From Chiloscyllium plagiosum (lineage: Eukaryota), in assembly GCF_004010195.1 (NCBI RefSeq), contig NC_057718.1:104928158-104957831 (forward strand): DNA of 29,674 nt, given 5' to 3'. Position 1 is the first letter of the stretch; every line of letters begins with the position of its first letter. The notes beneath the pieces are model-generated. The model had not been told where the DNA came from. It did not search any database and worked only from the letters and a program-made list of their open reading frames with translations. A program made the translations under genes and the position numbers. This document shows positions 409 through 15,766 of the stretch, piece by piece.

Positions 409-476
409 TATAACCTGGTGTTGTGTGATTTTTAACTTTGTACACCCCAGTCCAAGACGGGCACCTCCAAATCATG
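409..476 (+). mobile_element. Penelope-type terminal-repeat fragment (family B), 3' terminus
   Basis: Closely matches the reverse complement of ~12919-12985; ends ...cacctccaaatcat. Confidence 0.7.
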
Positions 477-7868: not shown

Positions 7869-8176
7869 GCTGACCCTCCGACAGTGCGGCACTCACTCAG
7901 CACTGACCCTCCGACAGTGCGGCACTCCCTCAGCACTGACCCTCCAACAGTGCAGCATTCCCTCGGCACTGACCCTCCGACAGTGTGGCGCTCCCTCAGC
8001 ACTGACCTTCTGATAGTGCGGCACTCCCTCAGCACTGACCCTCCGACAGTGTGACACTCCCTCAGCACTGACCCTCCGACAGTGCGGCACTCCCTGAGCG
8101 CTACCCTCTGACTGTGCGGCAGTCACTCAGTACTGACACAATGACAGTGCGGCACTCCCTGAGCGCTGACCCTCCA
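7869..8176. repeat. 33-bp minisatellite, about 9 copies (cagcactgaccctccgacagtgcggcactccct)
   Basis: Directly visible tandem periodicity with scattered substitutions. Confidence 0.95.
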
Positions 8177-8179
8177 CGA

Positions 8180-8350
8180 TAAGGCTGAAGCAGTTGCAGC
8201 AATCCTCACCCAGAAGTGCCAATCGAATGATGGATCTCAGCCTCCTCCAGTGGTCCCCAGCATCACAGATACCAGTCTATAGCCAATTCCATTCACTCAG
8301 CGTGATACCAAAAAATGCTTGGAGATACTGGATACGGCAAAGCCTGGGAT
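8180..8350 (+). mobile_element. LINE (CR1/L2 group) ORF2 internal fragment
   Basis: Reads VVPSITDTSL*PIPFTQRDTKKCLEILDTAK, resembling the region just upstream of LINE RT domains. Confidence 0.45.
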
Positions 8351-8968
8351 GAGACTCAATGTTGATCGGTAAGTAGAGAGGGAGGGGTGAATGACCTGGG
8401 GATAAGTTTGGATAAAGAGAACTGTACTTTATAGAAAATGGGAGGGGAACCATGTCTGGATGGGAGAAGGAATGTGTGTTTCAGCAGCAGACGGGCTGAG
8501 GTTGGGTTTGATTTGAACAATAATTATCTGACTCAGTCTCCACTTTTATAACATTGTATGCTGAAATGAGATGATGACATATAGTGTGTGTATTTAATCA
8601 TCATGTACTCCGGCACATCATTAATTTTACAAAATTAAATATATCAGATTATCAACTCTGTCTCATATTGAAACACTGGCTACAAGTTTATAAATATCTG
8701 CATAATTTCCAAATATGCATTAACAAAGGGCATTTTTTCACATGGGTCAGTTCATATTTTAATCATTGCGAAGTCACTGTATTATTTGAGTAAAAAGCAG
8801 CAGATGTTCAGAAATGTGAAACAAAAGGAGAGGCTGGGGCCTGCCAGCAGGTCAGTCAGTATGTTCCCAACTGGGGGCACATTTCAACCAGTCTACTGTC
8901 TAACACTGCTCAAAATTCAAACAATGTCAAGCAGCAGGAGAATGATTAACCAGCGGACGATGGGGATG

Positions 8969-9520
8969 GGGGAGGCAATGGCCTACTGGTATGATCACCA
9001 GACAGTTAAACCAGAGAAAGTGAGGACTGCAGATGCCGGAGATTGGAGTCAAAAAGTGTGATGCTGGAAAAGCACAGCAGTTCAGGCAGCATCCGAGGAT
9101 CAGGAGAGTCAACATTTCGGGCAAAAGCCCTTCATCAGGAGTCTGTTCCTTGAATGCTGCCTGACCTGTTGTGCTTTCCCAGTGCCATAGTTTTTGACTG
9201 TTAATCCAGAGACCCAGGTAAAGGTCTGTGGATGAGGATTCAAAACCCACCATGGTAGATGGTAGAATTTGAATTCAATGAAAATCTGGAATTAAGAATC
9301 TAATGAAGACTGTAATGCATTCCCGATGGGGGGCGAGAAACCCATCTGGGTCACTAACATTCTTTAGGAAAGGAAACTGCCATCCTTACCTGGTATAGCC
9401 CACATGTGACTCCAGACCCACAGCAAAGTGGTTGTCTCTTAACTGCCCTCAGGGCAATTAGGGATGGGCAATAAATGCTGCCCAGCCAGTGACACCCTCA
9501 TCCCATGAATGAATGAAAAC
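8969..9520 (+). mobile_element. tRNA-derived SINE interrupted by a PLE mini-element
   Basis: A-box-like tggcctactgg and B-box-like ggattcaaaaccc. The body matches 20905-21190 (minus) and 29064-29280; tail gggcaataaatgctg...atcccatgaatgaatg. Confidence 0.75.
9013..9199 (-). mobile_element. Penelope-derived mini-element (family A) with partial inverted arm
   Basis: Minus strand reads CTGATGA-A-GGGC-TTTT-GCCC-GAAA-TG-TT at 9138-9111. Flanking direct repeats at 9001-9017 and 9196-9212 match at 15/17. Confidence 0.8.
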
Positions 9521-9681
9521 AAAGGGCACTGTTTTATGATCATCCCAAGGTGGCCAGTGCTGGGGGCAATGGGGAAATGTAATTGCACGGAGCACGTTGT
9601 TGTAATCTGGTCTGTGGGGTGTGAAAGAGATGGAACCAGATTCAACAGTAACTTACAAAAGGGAATTGGATAGATCGTTGA

Positions 9682-9765
9682 AAGGGCTTATTCCTGAAAC
9701 GTCGATTCTCCTGCTCCTCGGACGCTGCCTGAATTGTAGTGCTTTTCCAGCATCACACTCTTCGA
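9682..9765 (+). mobile_element. Family A PLE terminal-repeat fragment within a decayed CR1 3' end
   Basis: aagggcttattcctgaaacgtcgattctcctgctcctcggacgctgcctga matches the other family A copies. Confidence 0.75.
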
Positions 9766-9852
9766 AAGTAAAAATCAGTCAGGCAGTGGGCAAGGAGTGG
9801 ACAGTGGGTCCAAATAGCCTCCTTCTGTGTCGTGCTCACTCAGTGGTGGCTC

Positions 9853-9896
9853 AGCTTTAAAATTTCCATCCTGGTTTTCAAATCCCTCCATGACTT
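9853..9896 (+). mobile_element. L2-like LINE 3' region, left part (split by the array and PLE)
   Basis: Reads FKISILVFKSLHD, typical of the L2 ORF2 C-terminus. Confidence 0.55.
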
Positions 9897-12800
9897 TGAT
9901 TCGGAGATATGATTCGGAGAAGCCGGTGTTGATTCGGAGGAGCCGGTGTTGATTCGGAGATATGATTCGGAGAAGACGATGTTGATTCGGAGATATGATT
10001 CGGAGAAGCCGGTGTTGATTCGGAGGAGCCGGTGTTGATTCGGAGATATGATTCGGAGAAGCCGGTGTTGATTCGGAGGAGCCGGTGTTGATTCGGAGAT
10101 ATGATTCGGAGAAGCCGGTGTTGATTCGGAGGAGCCGGTGTTGATTCGGAGATATGATTCGGAGAAGCCGGTGTTGATTCGGAGGAGCCGGTGTTGATTC
10201 GGAGATATGATTCGGAGAAGCCGGTGTTGATTCGGAGGAGCCGGTGTTGATTCGGAGATATGATTCGGAGAAGCCGGTGTTGATTCGGAGGAGCCGGTGT
10301 TGATTCGGAGATATGATTCGGAGAAGCCGGTGTTGATTCGGAGGAGCCGGTGTTGATTCGGAGATATGATTCGGAGAAGCCGGTGTTGATTCGGAGGAGC
10401 CGGTGTTGATTCGGAGATATGATTCGGAGAAGCCGGTGTTGATTCGGAGGAGCCGGTGTTGATTCGGAGATATGATTCGGAGAAGCCGGTGTTGATTCGG
10501 AGGAGCCGGTGTTGATTCGGAGATATGATTCGGAGAAGCCGGTGTTGATTCGGAGGAGCCGGTGTTGATTCGGAGATATGATTCGGAGAAGCCGGTGTTG
10601 ATTCGGAGGAGCCGGTGTTGATTCGGAGATATGATTCGGAGAAGCCGGTGTTGATTCGGAGGAGCCGGTGTTGATTCGGAGATATGATTCGGAGAAGCCG
10701 GTGTTGATTCGGAGGAGCCGGTGTTGATTCGGAGATATGATTCGGAGAAGCCGGTGTTGATTCGGAGGAGCCGGTGTTGATTCGGAGATATGATTCGGAG
10801 AAGCCGGTGTTGATTCGGAGGAGCCGGTGTTGATTCGGAGATATGATTCGGAGAAGCCGGTGTTGATTCGGAGGAGCCGGTGTTGATTCGGAGATATGAT
10901 TCGGAGAAGCCGGTGTTGATTCGGAGGAGCCGGTGTTGATTCGGAGATATGATTCGGAGAAGCCGGTGTTGATTCGGAGGAGCCGGTGTTGATTCGGAGA
11001 TATGATTCGGAGAAGCCGGTGTTGATTCGGAGGAGCCGGTGTTGATTCGGAGATATGATTCGGAGAAGCCGGTGTTGATTCGGAGGAGCCGGTGTTGATT
11101 CGGAGATATGATTCGGAGAAGCCGGTGTTGATTCGGAGGAGCCGGTGTTGATTCGGAGATATGATTCGGAGAAGCCGGTGTTGATTCGGAGGAGCCGGTG
11201 TTGATTCGGAGATATGATTCGGAGAAGCCGGTGTTGATTCGGAGGAGCCGGTGTTGATTCGGAGATATGATTCGGAGAAGCCGGTGTTGATTCGGAGGAG
11301 CCGGTGTTGATTCGGAGATATGATTCGGAGAAGCCGGTGTTGATTCGGAGGAGCCGGTGTTGATTCGGAGATATGATTCGGAGAAGCCGGTGTTGATTCG
11401 GAGGAGCCGGTGTTGATTCGGAGATATGATTCGGAGAAGCCGGTGTTGATTCGGAGGAGCCGGTGTTGATTCGGAGATATGATTCGGAGAAGCCGGTGTT
11501 GATTCGGAGGAGCCGGTGTTGATTCGGAGATATGATTCGGAGAAGCCGGTGTTGATTCGGAGGAGCCGGTGTTGATTCGGAGATATGATTCGGAGAAGCC
11601 GGTGTTGATTCGGAGGAGCCGGTGTTGATTCGGAGATATGATTCGGAGAAGCCGGTGTTGATTCGGAGGAGCCGGTGTTGATTCGGAGATATGATTCGGA
11701 GAAGCCGGTGTTGATTCGGAGGAGCCGGTGTTGATTCGGAGATATGATTCGGAGAAGCCGGTGTTGATTCGGAGGAGCCGGTGTTGATTCGGAGATATGA
11801 TTCGGAGAAGCCGGTGTTGATTCGGAGGAGCCGGTGTTGATTCGGAGATATGATTCGGAGAAGCCGGTGTTGATTCGGAGGAGCCGGTGTTGATTCGGAG
11901 ATATGATTCGGAGAAGCCGGTGTTGATTCGGAGGAGCCGGTGTTGATTCGGAGATATGATTCGGAGAAGCCGGTGTTGATTCGGAGGAGCCGGTGTTGAT
12001 TCGGAGATATGATTCGGAGAAGCCGGTGTTGATTCGGAGGAGCCGGTGTTGATTCGGAGATATGATTCGGAGAAGCCGGTGTTGATTCGGAGGAGCCGGT
12101 GTTGATTCGGAGATATGATTCGGAGAAGCCGGTGTTGATTCGGAGGAGCCGGTGTTGATTCGGAGATATGATTCGGAGAAGCCGGTGTTGATTCGGAGGA
12201 GCCGGTGTTGATTCGGAGATATGATTCGGAGAAGCCGGTGTTGATTCGGAGGAGCCGGTGTTGATTCGGAGATATGATTCGGAGAAGCCGGTGTTGATTC
12301 GGAGGAGCCGGTGTTGATTCGGAGATATGATTCGGAGAAGCCGGTGTTGATTCGGAGGAGCCGGTGTTGATTCGGAGATATGATTCGGAGAAGCCGGTGT
12401 TGATTCGGAGGAGCCGGTGTTGATTCGGAGATATGATTCGGAGAAGCCGGTGTTGATTCGGAGGAGCCGGTGTTGATTCGGAGATATGATTCGGAGAAGC
12501 CGGTGTTGATTCGGAGGAGCCGGTGTTGATTCGGAGATATGATTCGGAGAAGCCGGTGTTGATTCGGAGGAGCCGGTGTTGATTCGGAGATATGATTCGG
12601 AGAAGCCGGTGTTGATTCGGAGGAGCCGGTGTTGATTCGGAGATATGATTCGGAGAAGCCGGTGTTGATTCGGAGGAGCCGGTGTTGATTCGGAGATATG
12701 ATTCGGAGAAGCCGGTGTTGATTCGGAGGAGCCGGTGTTGATTCGGAGATATGATTCGGAGAAGCCGGTGTTGATTCGGAGGAGCCGGTGTTGATTCGGA

Positions 12801-12940
12801 GATATGATTCGGAGAAGCCGGTGTTCGGAGATATGATTCGGAGGAGCCGGTGTTGATTCGGAGATGCCGGTGTTGATTCGGAGATATGATTCGGAGGAGC
12901 CGGTGTTGATTCGGAGATATGATTCGGAGATGCCGATGTT
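9897..12940. repeat. Tandem array with a 53-bp unit (13+20+20: gattcggagatat gattcggagaagccggtgtt gattcggaggagccggtgtt); 53 regular copies at 9984-12792 with irregular subunits at both edges
   Basis: Periodicity is directly visible, and 12793-9984 = 2809 = 53 x 53. I saw no variants in the core. Confidence 0.98.
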
Positions 12941-13095
12941 GGACTGGGGTGGACAAAGTTAAAAATCCCACAACACCAGGTTACAGTCCAACAGATTTAT
13001 TTGGAAGCACTAGCTTTCAGAGCGCTGCTCCTTCATCACAACCACCTGCTTCCAAAGAAACATGTTGGACTATAACCTGGTGTTGTGGGATTTTT
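12918..13095 (-). mobile_element. Penelope-type terminal repeat (family B) with inverted partial copy
   Basis: Inverted arms at 12961-13009 and 13047-13095. The minus strand between them reads gTGATGA-A-GGAGC-AGC-GCTCT-GAAA-GC-TA, a degenerate hammerhead-like motif. Homologous to 409-476. Confidence 0.75.
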
Positions 13096-13099
13096 CCCT

Positions 13100-13385
13100 G
13101 TGTACTCGCTGACCTTGCCCTGTTTCAGTTATTTCACTGTCAGCAGCAGCTGTACCTTTAGCTGCCAGCCTGCTGAGCTCTTGAGGACTTTCTCTAAACC
13201 TGTATCTCCTCCTTTCCACCTTTAAAAGACTCCTTAAACTCAACCTCCTAGGCTGAGCTTTGGGTCACCTGTCCTGATATCACCTCTTGTGGTTCAGGGC
13301 CCTCCGATGGTCCTCGAGGTGGTTTACTATGAATACAAGTCACTGGGGTTAAGGGTGTGATGTAAATGCAGATTGTTGTTGTTGT
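13100..13385 (+). mobile_element. L2-like LINE 3' end, right part
   Basis: FKRLLKLNL-like remnant, gctttgggtcacctgtcc, and a taaatgcaga(ttg)n tail. Confidence 0.6.
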
Positions 13386-13933: not shown

Positions 13934-15766
13934 CAGCTGGGACAGAGTGGGGTCTGTGCTGGTCCTCAGCTGGGACAGAGTGGGGTCTGTGCTGGTCCTC
14001 AGCTGGGACAGACCGGGGTCTATGCTGGTCCTTAGATGGGACAGAGCTGGGTCTGTGCTGGTCCTCAGCTGGGACAGAGTGGGGTCTGTGCTGGTGCTGC
14101 CAGCTGGGACAGAGCGGGGTCTGTGCTGGTCCTCAGCTGGGACAGAGCAGGGTCTATGCTGGTCCTCAGCTGGGACAGAGCGGGGTCTGTGCTGGTGCTG
14201 CCAGCTGGGACAGAGTGGGGTCTGTGCTGGTCCTCAACTGGGACAGAGTGGGGTCTGTGCTGGTCCTTAGCTGGGACAGAGCGGGGTCTGTGCTGGTCCT
14301 CAACTGGGTCAGAGTGGGGTCTGTGCTGGTCCTTAGCTGGGACAGAGCGGGGTCTGTGCTGGTCCTCAGCTGGGACAGAGCAGGGTCTATGCTGGTCCTC
14401 AACAGACCGGGGTCTATGCTGGTCCTCAGATGGGACAGAGCTGGGTCTGTGCTGGTCCTCAGCTGGGACAGAGCGGGGTCTGTGCTGGTGCTGCCAGCTG
14501 GGACAGAGTGGGGTCTGTGCTGGTCCTCAACTGGGACAGAGTGGGGTCTGTGCTGGTCCTTAGCTGGGACAGAGCTGGGTCTGTGCTGGTCCTCAACTGG
14601 GACAGAGTGGGGTCTGTGCTGGTCCTTAGCTGGGACAGAGCGGGGTCTGTGCTGGTCCTCAGCTGGGACAGAGCAGGGTCTGTGCTGGTCCTCAGCTGGG
14701 ACAGAGCAGGGTCTATGCTGGTCCTCAACTGGGACAGAGCGGGGTCTGTGCTGGTCCTCAGATGGGACAGACCGGGGTCTATGCTGGTCCTCAGCTGGGA
14801 CAGAATGGGGTCTGTGCTGGTGCTGCCAGCTGGGACAGAGTGGGGTCTGTGCTGGTCCTCAACTGGGACAGAGTGGGGTCTGTGCTGGTCCTCAACTGGG
14901 ACAGAGTGGGGTCTGTGCTGGTCCTTAGCTGGGACAGAGCGGGGTCTGTGCTGGTCCTCAACTGGGACAGAGTGGGTTCTGTGCTGGTCCTCAGCTGGGA
15001 CAGAGCAGGGTCTATGCTGGTCCTCAACTGGGACAGAGCGGGGTCTGTGCTGGTCCTCAGCTGGGACAGAGCGGGGTCTGTGCTGGTGCTGCCATCTGGG
15101 ACAGAGTGGGGTCTGTGCTGGTCCTCAGCTGGGACAGAGTGGGGTCTGTGCTGGTCCTCAGCTGGGACAGACCGGGGTCTATGCTGGTCCTCAGCTGGGA
15201 CAGAGCGGGGTCTGTGCTGGTGCTGTCAGCTGGGACAGAGTGGGGTCTGTGCTGGTCCTCAACTGGGACAGAGTGTGGTCTGTGCTGGTCCTTAGCTGGG
15301 ACAGAACGGGGTCTGTGCTGGTCCTCAACTGGGACAGAGTGGGGTCTGTGCTGGTCCTTAGCTGGGACAGAGCGGGGTCTGTGCTGGTCCTCAGCTGGGA
15401 CAGAGCAGGGTCTTTGCTGGTCCTCAACTGGGACAGAGCGGGGTCTGTGCTGGTCCTCAGCTGGGACAGACCGGGGTCTATGCTGGTCCTTAGCTGGGAC
15501 AGAGCGGGGTCTGTGCTGGTGCTGCCAGCTGGGACAGAGTGGGGTCTGTGCTGGTCCTCAGCTGGGACAGAGTGGGGTCTGTGCTGGTCCTCAACTGGGA
15601 CAGAGTGGGGTCTGTGCTGGTCCTTAGCTGGGACAGAGCGGGATCTGTGCTGGTCCTCAGCTGGGACAGAGCGGGGTCTGTGCTGGTCCTCAGCTGGGAC
15701 AGAGCGGGGTCTGTGCTGGTGCTGCCAGCTGGGACAGAGCGGGGTCTGTGCTGGTGCTGCCAGCTG
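13934..15766. repeat. 33-bp minisatellite, about 55 copies (cagctgggacagag[c/t]ggggtctgtgctggtcct) with recurring 35-bp variants
   Basis: Directly visible; variants include caact, tagct, accgg, ctatg and ggtgctgc. Confidence 0.97.

What the first reader, a model, noticed from the sequence alone, without database searches (positions are those of the whole stretch)
9897..13095. 3-kb array built from the last 13-20 nt of a Penelope terminal repeat and fused to its 3' end: possible telomerase-like reiterated copying
Seen: the array runs without a spacer into a PLE-type terminal repeat (atgattcggagatgccgatgttggactgggg, from 12919). Every subunit is a prefix of that sequence, either the 13-mer atgattcggagat or a 20-mer tgattcggagNNgccggtgt. 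The independent copy at 409-476 ends at the same point (ctccaaatcat), so this appears to be the element's natural terminus. Subunits next to the element keep the ancestral gagatgcc (12855-12874, 12921-12940), while core units carry derived gagaagcc/gaggagcc. L2-like sequence flanks both sides, so array plus element look like one insert. Known: PLE reverse transcriptases are the closest retroelement relatives of telomerase and prime at the RNA 3' end. Inference: the plus strand would be first-strand cDNA, so the geometry fits repeated copy-and-realign cycles on the template end before full elongation. The fixed substitutions and homogeneity suggest that this seeded a 13+20+20 unit that was later amplified at the DNA level.
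Basis: partly seen in the sequence, partly recalled or inferred. Interest (0 to 1): 0.85.

Follow-up and report, generated by a model that had tools for sequence, protein, structure and literature searches.

The report
Minisatellite grown from Penelope element end
A 3-kb tandem repeat is built from the first 13-20 bases copied by an old Penelope-like retrotransposon insertion; it occurs once in this assembly and likely grew by ordinary DNA slippage and unequal exchange, not by telomerase-like copying.

Summary
The array is real in the assembly: 171 units (13-mer x58, two 20-mers x56 and x54, three variants) abut a 177-bp hairpin-shaped Penelope-like insertion at its 3' end, with the window's plus strand as first-strand cDNA. 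The telomerase-like reading fails its own test. Of 11,816 exact-pattern termini, 10 loci (ours included) repeat the terminal 9-mer upstream (0.085%), the same rate as an internal motif (37 of 49,850) and as ordinary flanking DNA (0.07-0.10%). No other terminus has three exact copies, and the 20-mer junction and 53-mer occur only here. The 2,822-bp core has no substitutions, while the element's two arms differ at 4 of 49 sites, so the bulk is much younger than the insertion. The usual target-site duplication is missing, about 60 bp of host repeat are lost, and the locus lies 0.94 Mb from the contig end. Best reading: a single-locus, transposon-derived minisatellite amplified at DNA level. A one-off reverse-transcriptase restart as the seed remains possible (about 30%). 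Reads roughly support a kilobase-scale array; its exact length is unverified.

The parts
9850..9896 (+). Left flank: piece of a dispersed host repeat (L2-like by recall); its continuation ...actttg shares TG with the first array unit
   Evidence: 13 paralogs match 9849-9897
9897..12919 (+). Tandem array of 171 units: 13-mer x58, 20-mer gaggagcc x56, 20-mer gagaagcc x54, three single variants; 53-bp higher unit
9983..12804 (+). Perfect core, 2,822 bp, 53.2 units, no mismatch to a perfect repeat
9963..9982 (+). Left-edge variant unit with two extra changes, one shared with the element's own terminus
12805..12833 (+). Right-edge unit with a 4-nt deletion of the terminus start (not a prefix)
12854..12873 (+). 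Only 20-mer with the family's common gagatgcc sequence
12919..13040 (-). 3' end of a Penelope-like element; sense is the minus strand, 12919 is the end where cDNA would start
   Evidence: in L068 the terminus runs about 520 nt into the antisense end of a GIY-YIG-like frame
13015..13039 (-). Hammerhead-like core, first C replaced by G in this copy (motif definition recalled)
   Evidence: intact core antisense to the terminus strand in 14 of 39 other copies; Rfam gave no hammerhead hit
12937..12993 (-). Predicted 10-bp RNA stem (12937-12946 with 12984-12993) starting 19 nt from the terminus
   Evidence: whole-fold z -1.8; nt 22 and 24 paired in 30 of 39 copies
13047..13095 (+). Inverted arm of the insertion; differs from 12961-13009 at 4 of 49 sites
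13096..13300 (+). Right flank: same host repeat, resuming about 60 bp downstream of the left flank; no target-site duplication
409..475 (-). Independent copy of the same terminus with a clean end

Best explanation
This is a single-locus 53-bp minisatellite made of the terminal 13-20 bases of an old Penelope-like insertion, likely seeded by a short DNA duplication after insertion and likely amplified by slippage and unequal exchange. Shown: unit composition, uniqueness in the assembly, element identity and strand, an aged element beside a substitution-free core, loss of the target-site duplication and about 60 bp of host repeat, position 0.94 Mb from the contig end. Inferred order: (1) a 5'-inverted short copy inserted into a host repeat, probably with the usual 9-15 bp duplication; (2) short duplications of its end arose, the 20-mer over a TG microhomology; (3) point changes gagatgcc to gagaagcc to gaggagcc accumulated in single units; (4) a 13+20+20 block was amplified and homogenised, older variants surviving at the edges; (5) a microhomology deletion removed the original left junction. 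No function is implied.
For: No terminal enrichment: 10 of 11,816 vs 37 of 49,850 internal vs 45-65 of about 67,000-68,000 positions in 179 kb of flanking DNA after repeat masking. The 53-mer pattern has 110 matches in the assembly and the window alone holds 110; the ancestral 20-mer junction occurs once, here; all 53 other triple matches are unrelated repeats. Core 0 of 2,822 mismatches vs arms 4 of 49 and 7 of 100 columns from the family's commonest letter; about 113 changes expected if coeval. The two main 20-mer types are rare among termini (2 of 100 each), so they are likely local mutations. A non-prefix deletion unit lies inside the array. Two other minisatellites lie within 3 kb; contig length 105.88 Mb. 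Array-specific depth at 9953-9995 is seen in organism A runs but not in B (0.96) or C (0). Same architecture as SINE-derived satellites (PMC10702118).
Against: 170 of 171 units start at the element's natural first or second base, and the 13-mer junction has no microhomology in the element, which a restart at a fixed site explains more simply than slippage. The 20-mer ends at the foot of a predicted stem. Two other loci (L095, L099) have an 11-nt re-copy inside their target-site duplication and two more may (L098, L100). The internal control lies only 55-80 nt from the terminus and could itself be enzyme slippage; the flanking-DNA control is not age-matched. Exact patterns miss diverged copies. 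The original left junction is gone, so the seed cannot be read directly.
Confidence: 0.6

Rival explanations
1. The seed (one 13-mer, perhaps one 20-mer) was made at insertion: the reverse transcriptase started at its fixed site, let go after 13-20 nt and started again; the 3-kb bulk still grew later at DNA level.
For: Units begin at the natural start; the 13-mer needs no homology, and the one tested enzyme initiates without primer homology (PMC11167929). Short re-copies of 11-17 nt at L095, L099 (inside the duplication) and possibly L098, L100; in both L095 and L099 the two copies differ T vs C, as two templates would give. The 20-mer has a 2-nt TG homology and ends at a predicted stem.
Against: Such re-copies are 2 to 4 of 11,815 other termini, each a single extra copy, at or below background. 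The best realignment register at the terminus (3-nt ATG, period 11) gives 0 junctions in this array. No other 20-mer junction in the assembly. T vs C can be CpG decay.
Confidence: 0.3
2. Processive, telomerase-like repeat addition by the element's enzyme wrote many units at once.
For: Penelope-like enzymes are kin to telomerase (PMC8557442, PMC12632851); a 2-nt A-B-A' pattern and a boundary stem exist for the 20-mer, and 2-nt homology suffices in some DRT10 systems.
Against: 110 of 113 20-mer-type units differ from the template at fixed sites in a strict 13+20+20 order; the core is far younger than the element; no other terminus has three exact copies; a 20-nt spacer abolished repeat addition in DRT10 (here 18 nt); the site is not at a chromosome end.
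Confidence: 0.03
3. The array is short in the animal and was inflated or homogenised by assembly (gap filling or polishing).
For: 53 identical units; the assembly has 101,977 contigs and N-gaps at repeats. One organism A contig of 528 nt matches 9704-9868 exactly and then leaves for 363 letters not shown; an 83-nt contig differs at 7 sites where the window's core would differ at 4.
Against: Raw reads of an organism A run give depth 5.1-6.1 on 9896-9995 against about 0.6 on unique flank at 0.54x, about 6 reads, as from 1-3 kb; irregular edge units are what real arrays keep. The reads are few, all of one pair orientation, and their letters were not shown.
Confidence: 0.07

Closest known systems
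SINE-derived satellites of squamates (Vassetzky et al. 2023, PMC10702118; abstract and Discussion read)
   Same: Tandem repeat of part of a retroelement with one longer terminal unit continuing into the element; homogeneity rising with length; di- or trimeric higher units; subtelomeric bias; most primary duplications stay single
   Different: Parent is a Penelope-like element in a shark-like genome (taxon recalled from repeat content); units come from the extreme end; one locus only, no family of arrays
Endonuclease-bearing Penelope-like elements (PMC8557442 and PMC4209133, passages read; PMC11167929, parts 1-2 of 4 read)
   Same: 5'-truncated copy with adjacent inverted piece, hammerhead-like core near the 3' end, RT and C-terminal GIY-YIG pieces in sister copies, variable few-base extension at the end
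   Different: No target-site duplication at this copy; a 3-kb array on its end; clade (Poseidon or Neptune) not established
Telomerase and DRT10 repeat addition (PMC12632851, passages and one results section read)
   Same: Related enzyme family; a short A-B-A' pattern and a stem beside the copied stretch can be drawn for the 20-mer
   Different: No sign of iteration at other copies; the 13-mer has no A-A' homology; the best register (11-mer) is absent; units are not faithful copies of the template
Telomere-attached endonuclease-less Penelope-like elements, Athena and Coprina (PMC8557442 passage)
   Same: Repeats joined to a Penelope-like 3' end
   Different: There the repeats are host telomeric repeats at chromosome ends; here they are the element's own sequence, 0.94 Mb inside, and the family has an endonuclease

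Membership tests
Penelope-like element (with endonuclease) | RT plus C-terminal GIY-YIG frame joined to this terminal repeat | tested here: met
   Atlas look-alikes GIY-YIG 0.95 (family on 41% of members) and RT 0.91-0.94 for pieces in L100 and L068; terminus collinear with the antisense end of that frame in L068. Pfam found neither; no intact copy examined
Penelope-like element (with endonuclease) | 5' truncation with adjacent inverted copy | tested here: met
   12961-13103 self-complementary; an inverted arm within 700 nt in 43 of 56 copies with a located head, 29 of the 59 examined having been picked by a hairpin query
Penelope-like element (with endonuclease) | Hammerhead ribozyme motif in the terminal repeat | tested here: inconclusive
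   Recalled core pattern present in 14 of 39 copies on the sense strand, damaged here; no Rfam match; cleavage untested
Penelope-like element (with endonuclease) | Clade placement by RT phylogeny | not tested
   No tree built
Transposon-derived minisatellite | Head-to-tail units of 10-60 bp derived from an adjoining element | tested here: met
Transposon-derived minisatellite | Homogenised core with older variants at the edges, younger than the parent element | tested here: met
Transposon-derived minisatellite | Copy-number variation between alleles or individuals | tested here: inconclusive
   hints at other alleles in one run; no spanning record
Telomerase-like repeat addition | Iterated copies recurring at products of the same enzyme and template | tested here: not met
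   0 other termini with three exact copies, 0 other 20-mer junctions among at least 11,815
Telomerase-like repeat addition | A-A' homology in the template that sets the repeat | tested here: inconclusive
   2 nt for the 20-mer, none for the 13-mer; the 3-nt registers (periods 11, 17) are unused
Telomerase-like repeat addition | Repeats are faithful copies of the template | tested here: not met
   110 of 113 20-mer-type units carry fixed changes rare in the family
Telomerase-like repeat addition | Enzyme adds repeats in vitro | not testable with these tools
   Needs a bench assay

The most novel reading that the evidence does not exclude
Penelope-like reverse transcriptases occasionally abort 11-20 nt after their fixed internal start, at the foot of an RNA stem, and restart on the same primer, leaving short terminal re-copies (this locus, L095, L099, perhaps L098 and L100). 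That would be a vestigial single round of telomerase-like template resetting, and here it seeded a minisatellite.
Probability: 0.25. Interest if true: 0.6.

Novelty: new member of a known kind. Interest (0 to 1): 0.2.

Why it matters
As read here it is an ordinary outcome: one of more than ten thousand element ends was caught up in minisatellite growth near a chromosome end. It extends transposon-derived tandem repeats to a Penelope-like terminus (none was listed in six literature searches, of a library lacking most subscription papers) and gives a useful negative: in a genome rich in these elements, telomerase's closest mobile relatives leave no genomic sign of processive repeat addition. If the restart seed were proven, it would show template resetting in this enzyme family and bear on how telomerase repeat addition arose.

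Tried and rejected
Second array at C17:72.06 Mb, (GATTCGGAGA)n x41: looked like a sister case, is a (GA)n-derived repeat with no element. L091 and L097 looked like terminal re-copies but the extra copy is the target-site duplication of a look-alike target; L092 and L101 duplicate 23 nt of flank with the end; L096's copy lies outside its duplication. Mixed-template origin of the two 20-mers: rejected, each type 2 of 100 termini. Idea that the lost target-site copy (right flank starts CCCTGTGT, 6 of 8 like the 20-mer's end GCCGGTGT) supplied the slippage homology: plausible but untestable here, and it would predict a 21-mer if the A start was present. Rfam and Pfam gave nothing relevant. Orthologous junction in organisms B and C: no listed contig spans 9868-9897, so empty-site or element-only states were not seen; 4 of 23 listed runs were laid. 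The three long minus-strand open frames over the array follow from a stop-free unit and were not pursued. Three look-ups of earlier findings returned nothing. No supplementary files were read.

Full report
Observation. Splitting 9897-12999 at TGATTCGG gives 172 starts: 58 13-mers, 56 20-mers of the gaggagcc type, 54 of the gagaagcc type, three single variants, and the element's own end at 12920. The order is 13+20+20, period 53, 56 copies. The stretch 9983-12804 has no mismatch to a perfect repeat; irregular units sit only at the edges. [quoted passage not shown]

The element. 12919-13095 is a short hairpin: 12961-13103 matches itself on the other strand. Sister copies share the end at ATGATT, often with a few extra bases. 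In L068 this end runs about 520 nt into the antisense of a frame end found in L100; pieces of L100 and L068 resemble GIY-YIG and reverse transcriptase clusters in the Atlas, though Pfam found neither. A hammerhead-like core (pattern recalled) lies on the opposite strand in 14 of 39 copies and on the same strand in 1, an inverted piece. Truncation with an inverted neighbour is typical of the group (PMC8557442, passages).

Census. An exact 24-nt terminus pattern has 11,816 matches. Asking for the terminal 9-mer again within 30 nt upstream gives 11 matches at 10 loci, ours included (this pattern lacks the leading T, so the rate is if anything overstated). The same design on an internal motif gives 38 matches at 37 loci of 49,850: 0.085% vs 0.074%, Fisher p=0.71. 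In 179 kb of flanks from 78 held loci not picked for duplications, the rate is 0.067-0.096% after masking tandem repeats, 0.28% unmasked, 0.010% shuffled. Of the 9 other loci, two are target-site duplications of look-alike targets, two duplicate flank plus end, one lies outside the duplication, two (L095, L099) are true single 11-nt re-copies, and two are undecided. Three copies within 16-nt gaps: 221 matches, 168 in this window; the other 53 are at C4, C9, C11, C14 and C17 and show no element sequence in the listed matches or in the three loci read. The ancestral 20-mer junction occurs once. The 53-mer pattern has 110 matches, and the window alone accounts for 110. Limits: exact patterns miss diverged copies, the internal control is only 55-80 nt from the end and could itself reflect enzyme slippage, and the flank control is not age-matched.

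Age and junctions. The two arms, presumably identical at insertion, differ at 4 of 49 sites, and the first 100 columns differ from the commonest letter at 7 (median 5% in 39 other copies). A coeval core would carry about 113 changes; it has none. The two main 20-mers are each 2 of the first 100 termini listed, so they most likely arose here by mutation before amplification. 35 of 43 copies with both ends show a target-site duplication-like match (shuffled mean 1.9); 16 of 59 examined were dropped for lack of a head or an arm; this locus scores 5, below the cut of 7. Host-repeat paralogs place 59-61 bp between the flanks in the three best right-flank alignments and 35-63 bp in 7 of 13; the other 6 gave out-of-place alignments. 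The original left junction is therefore lost. The window lies at 104.94 Mb of a 105.88-Mb contig, with two more minisatellites within 3 kb.

Reads. On 8300-9995 (99 bp of array), raw reads of an organism A run at 0.54x give depth 5.1 and 6.1 on the two array bins against about 0.6 on unique flank, about 6 reads, compatible with 1-3 kb; all have one pair orientation and their letters were not shown. Contigs of another A run give 55-88 against 4-15. Organisms B and C hold the flank (36 differences in about 660 nt; 22 in about 670) but give 0.96 and 0 on 9953-9995, so the array as such seems absent there; their junction was not seen. Against a simple picture, one A contig leaves the window at 9868 for 363 unseen letters, and an 83-nt contig differs at 7 sites where 4 were expected. 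Whether organism A is the window's species is inferred from word share only.

Mechanism. Telomerase-like resetting needs homology between template start and boundary and a stem at the boundary (PMC12632851, section read). The terminus offers ATG at periods 11 and 17 and TG at period 20; period 13 has none; the array has 0 11-mer, 59 13-mer and 111 20-mer junctions. A predicted 10-bp stem starts 19 nt from the end and is kept in 30 of 39 copies, without covariation evidence. This, the homology-free 13-mer starting at the natural A, and L095/L099 keep a one-off restart alive as the seed (0.3). A processive origin is excluded in practice by the census, the fixed changes and the age gap (0.03). 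DNA-level seeding and growth is preferred (0.6); DNA-level growth of the bulk holds under both leading readings.

Comparison. It works like, and fits the tested features of, a transposon-derived minisatellite: SINE-derived satellites have the same long terminal unit, homogenised long arrays and subtelomeric bias (PMC10702118, abstract and Discussion). It fails membership of telomerase-like repeat addition on two tested features. PMC4209133 was read in passages; other papers were seen as search listings only. Verdict: new member of a known kind, interest 0.2.

Noticed in passing
L102-L131: Short tandem re-copies 40-80 nt inside the terminus recur with the same breakpoints at independent loci (a 22-nt unit at about 7 places) and some have three copies; could be enzyme slip-back in the AC-rich region or a DNA slippage hotspot.
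   Followed up: partly
L095, L099: 11-nt terminal re-copies inside the target-site duplication; in both the first copy has T and the second C at the same site.
   Followed up: partly
L098, about 245 nt inside the element: A 14-nt copy of the terminus sits at the inversion point of this insertion, as if copying restarted before the strand switch.
   Followed up: no
L091, L071: Copies inserted into older copies of the same terminal repeat, with the element's own sequence as target-site duplication.
   Followed up: partly
loci: This family shows 9-15 bp target-site duplications in 35 of 43 copies and two preferred starts, ATGATT and (a)gtcATGATT.
   Followed up: partly
window 9868 (run X15): A 528-nt contig matches 9704-9868 exactly and continues with 363 other letters: possibly an allele without the array or with another event.
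   Followed up: no
window 7870-8175 and 13934-15755: Two 33-bp minisatellites (9.3 and 54.9 copies, 82% and 89% matches) flank the finding; far less homogeneous than the 53-mer array.
   Followed up: no
L162 (C17:72.06 Mb): Perfect (GATTCGGAGA)n core of about 41 units inside a (GA)n tract with variant units at both edges, unrelated to the element.
   Followed up: yes
window 9014-9140 and 9682-9760: Two fragments, on opposite strands, of another very abundant dispersed repeat (read depth in the thousands); recalled as a second Penelope-like family, not tested.
   Followed up: no
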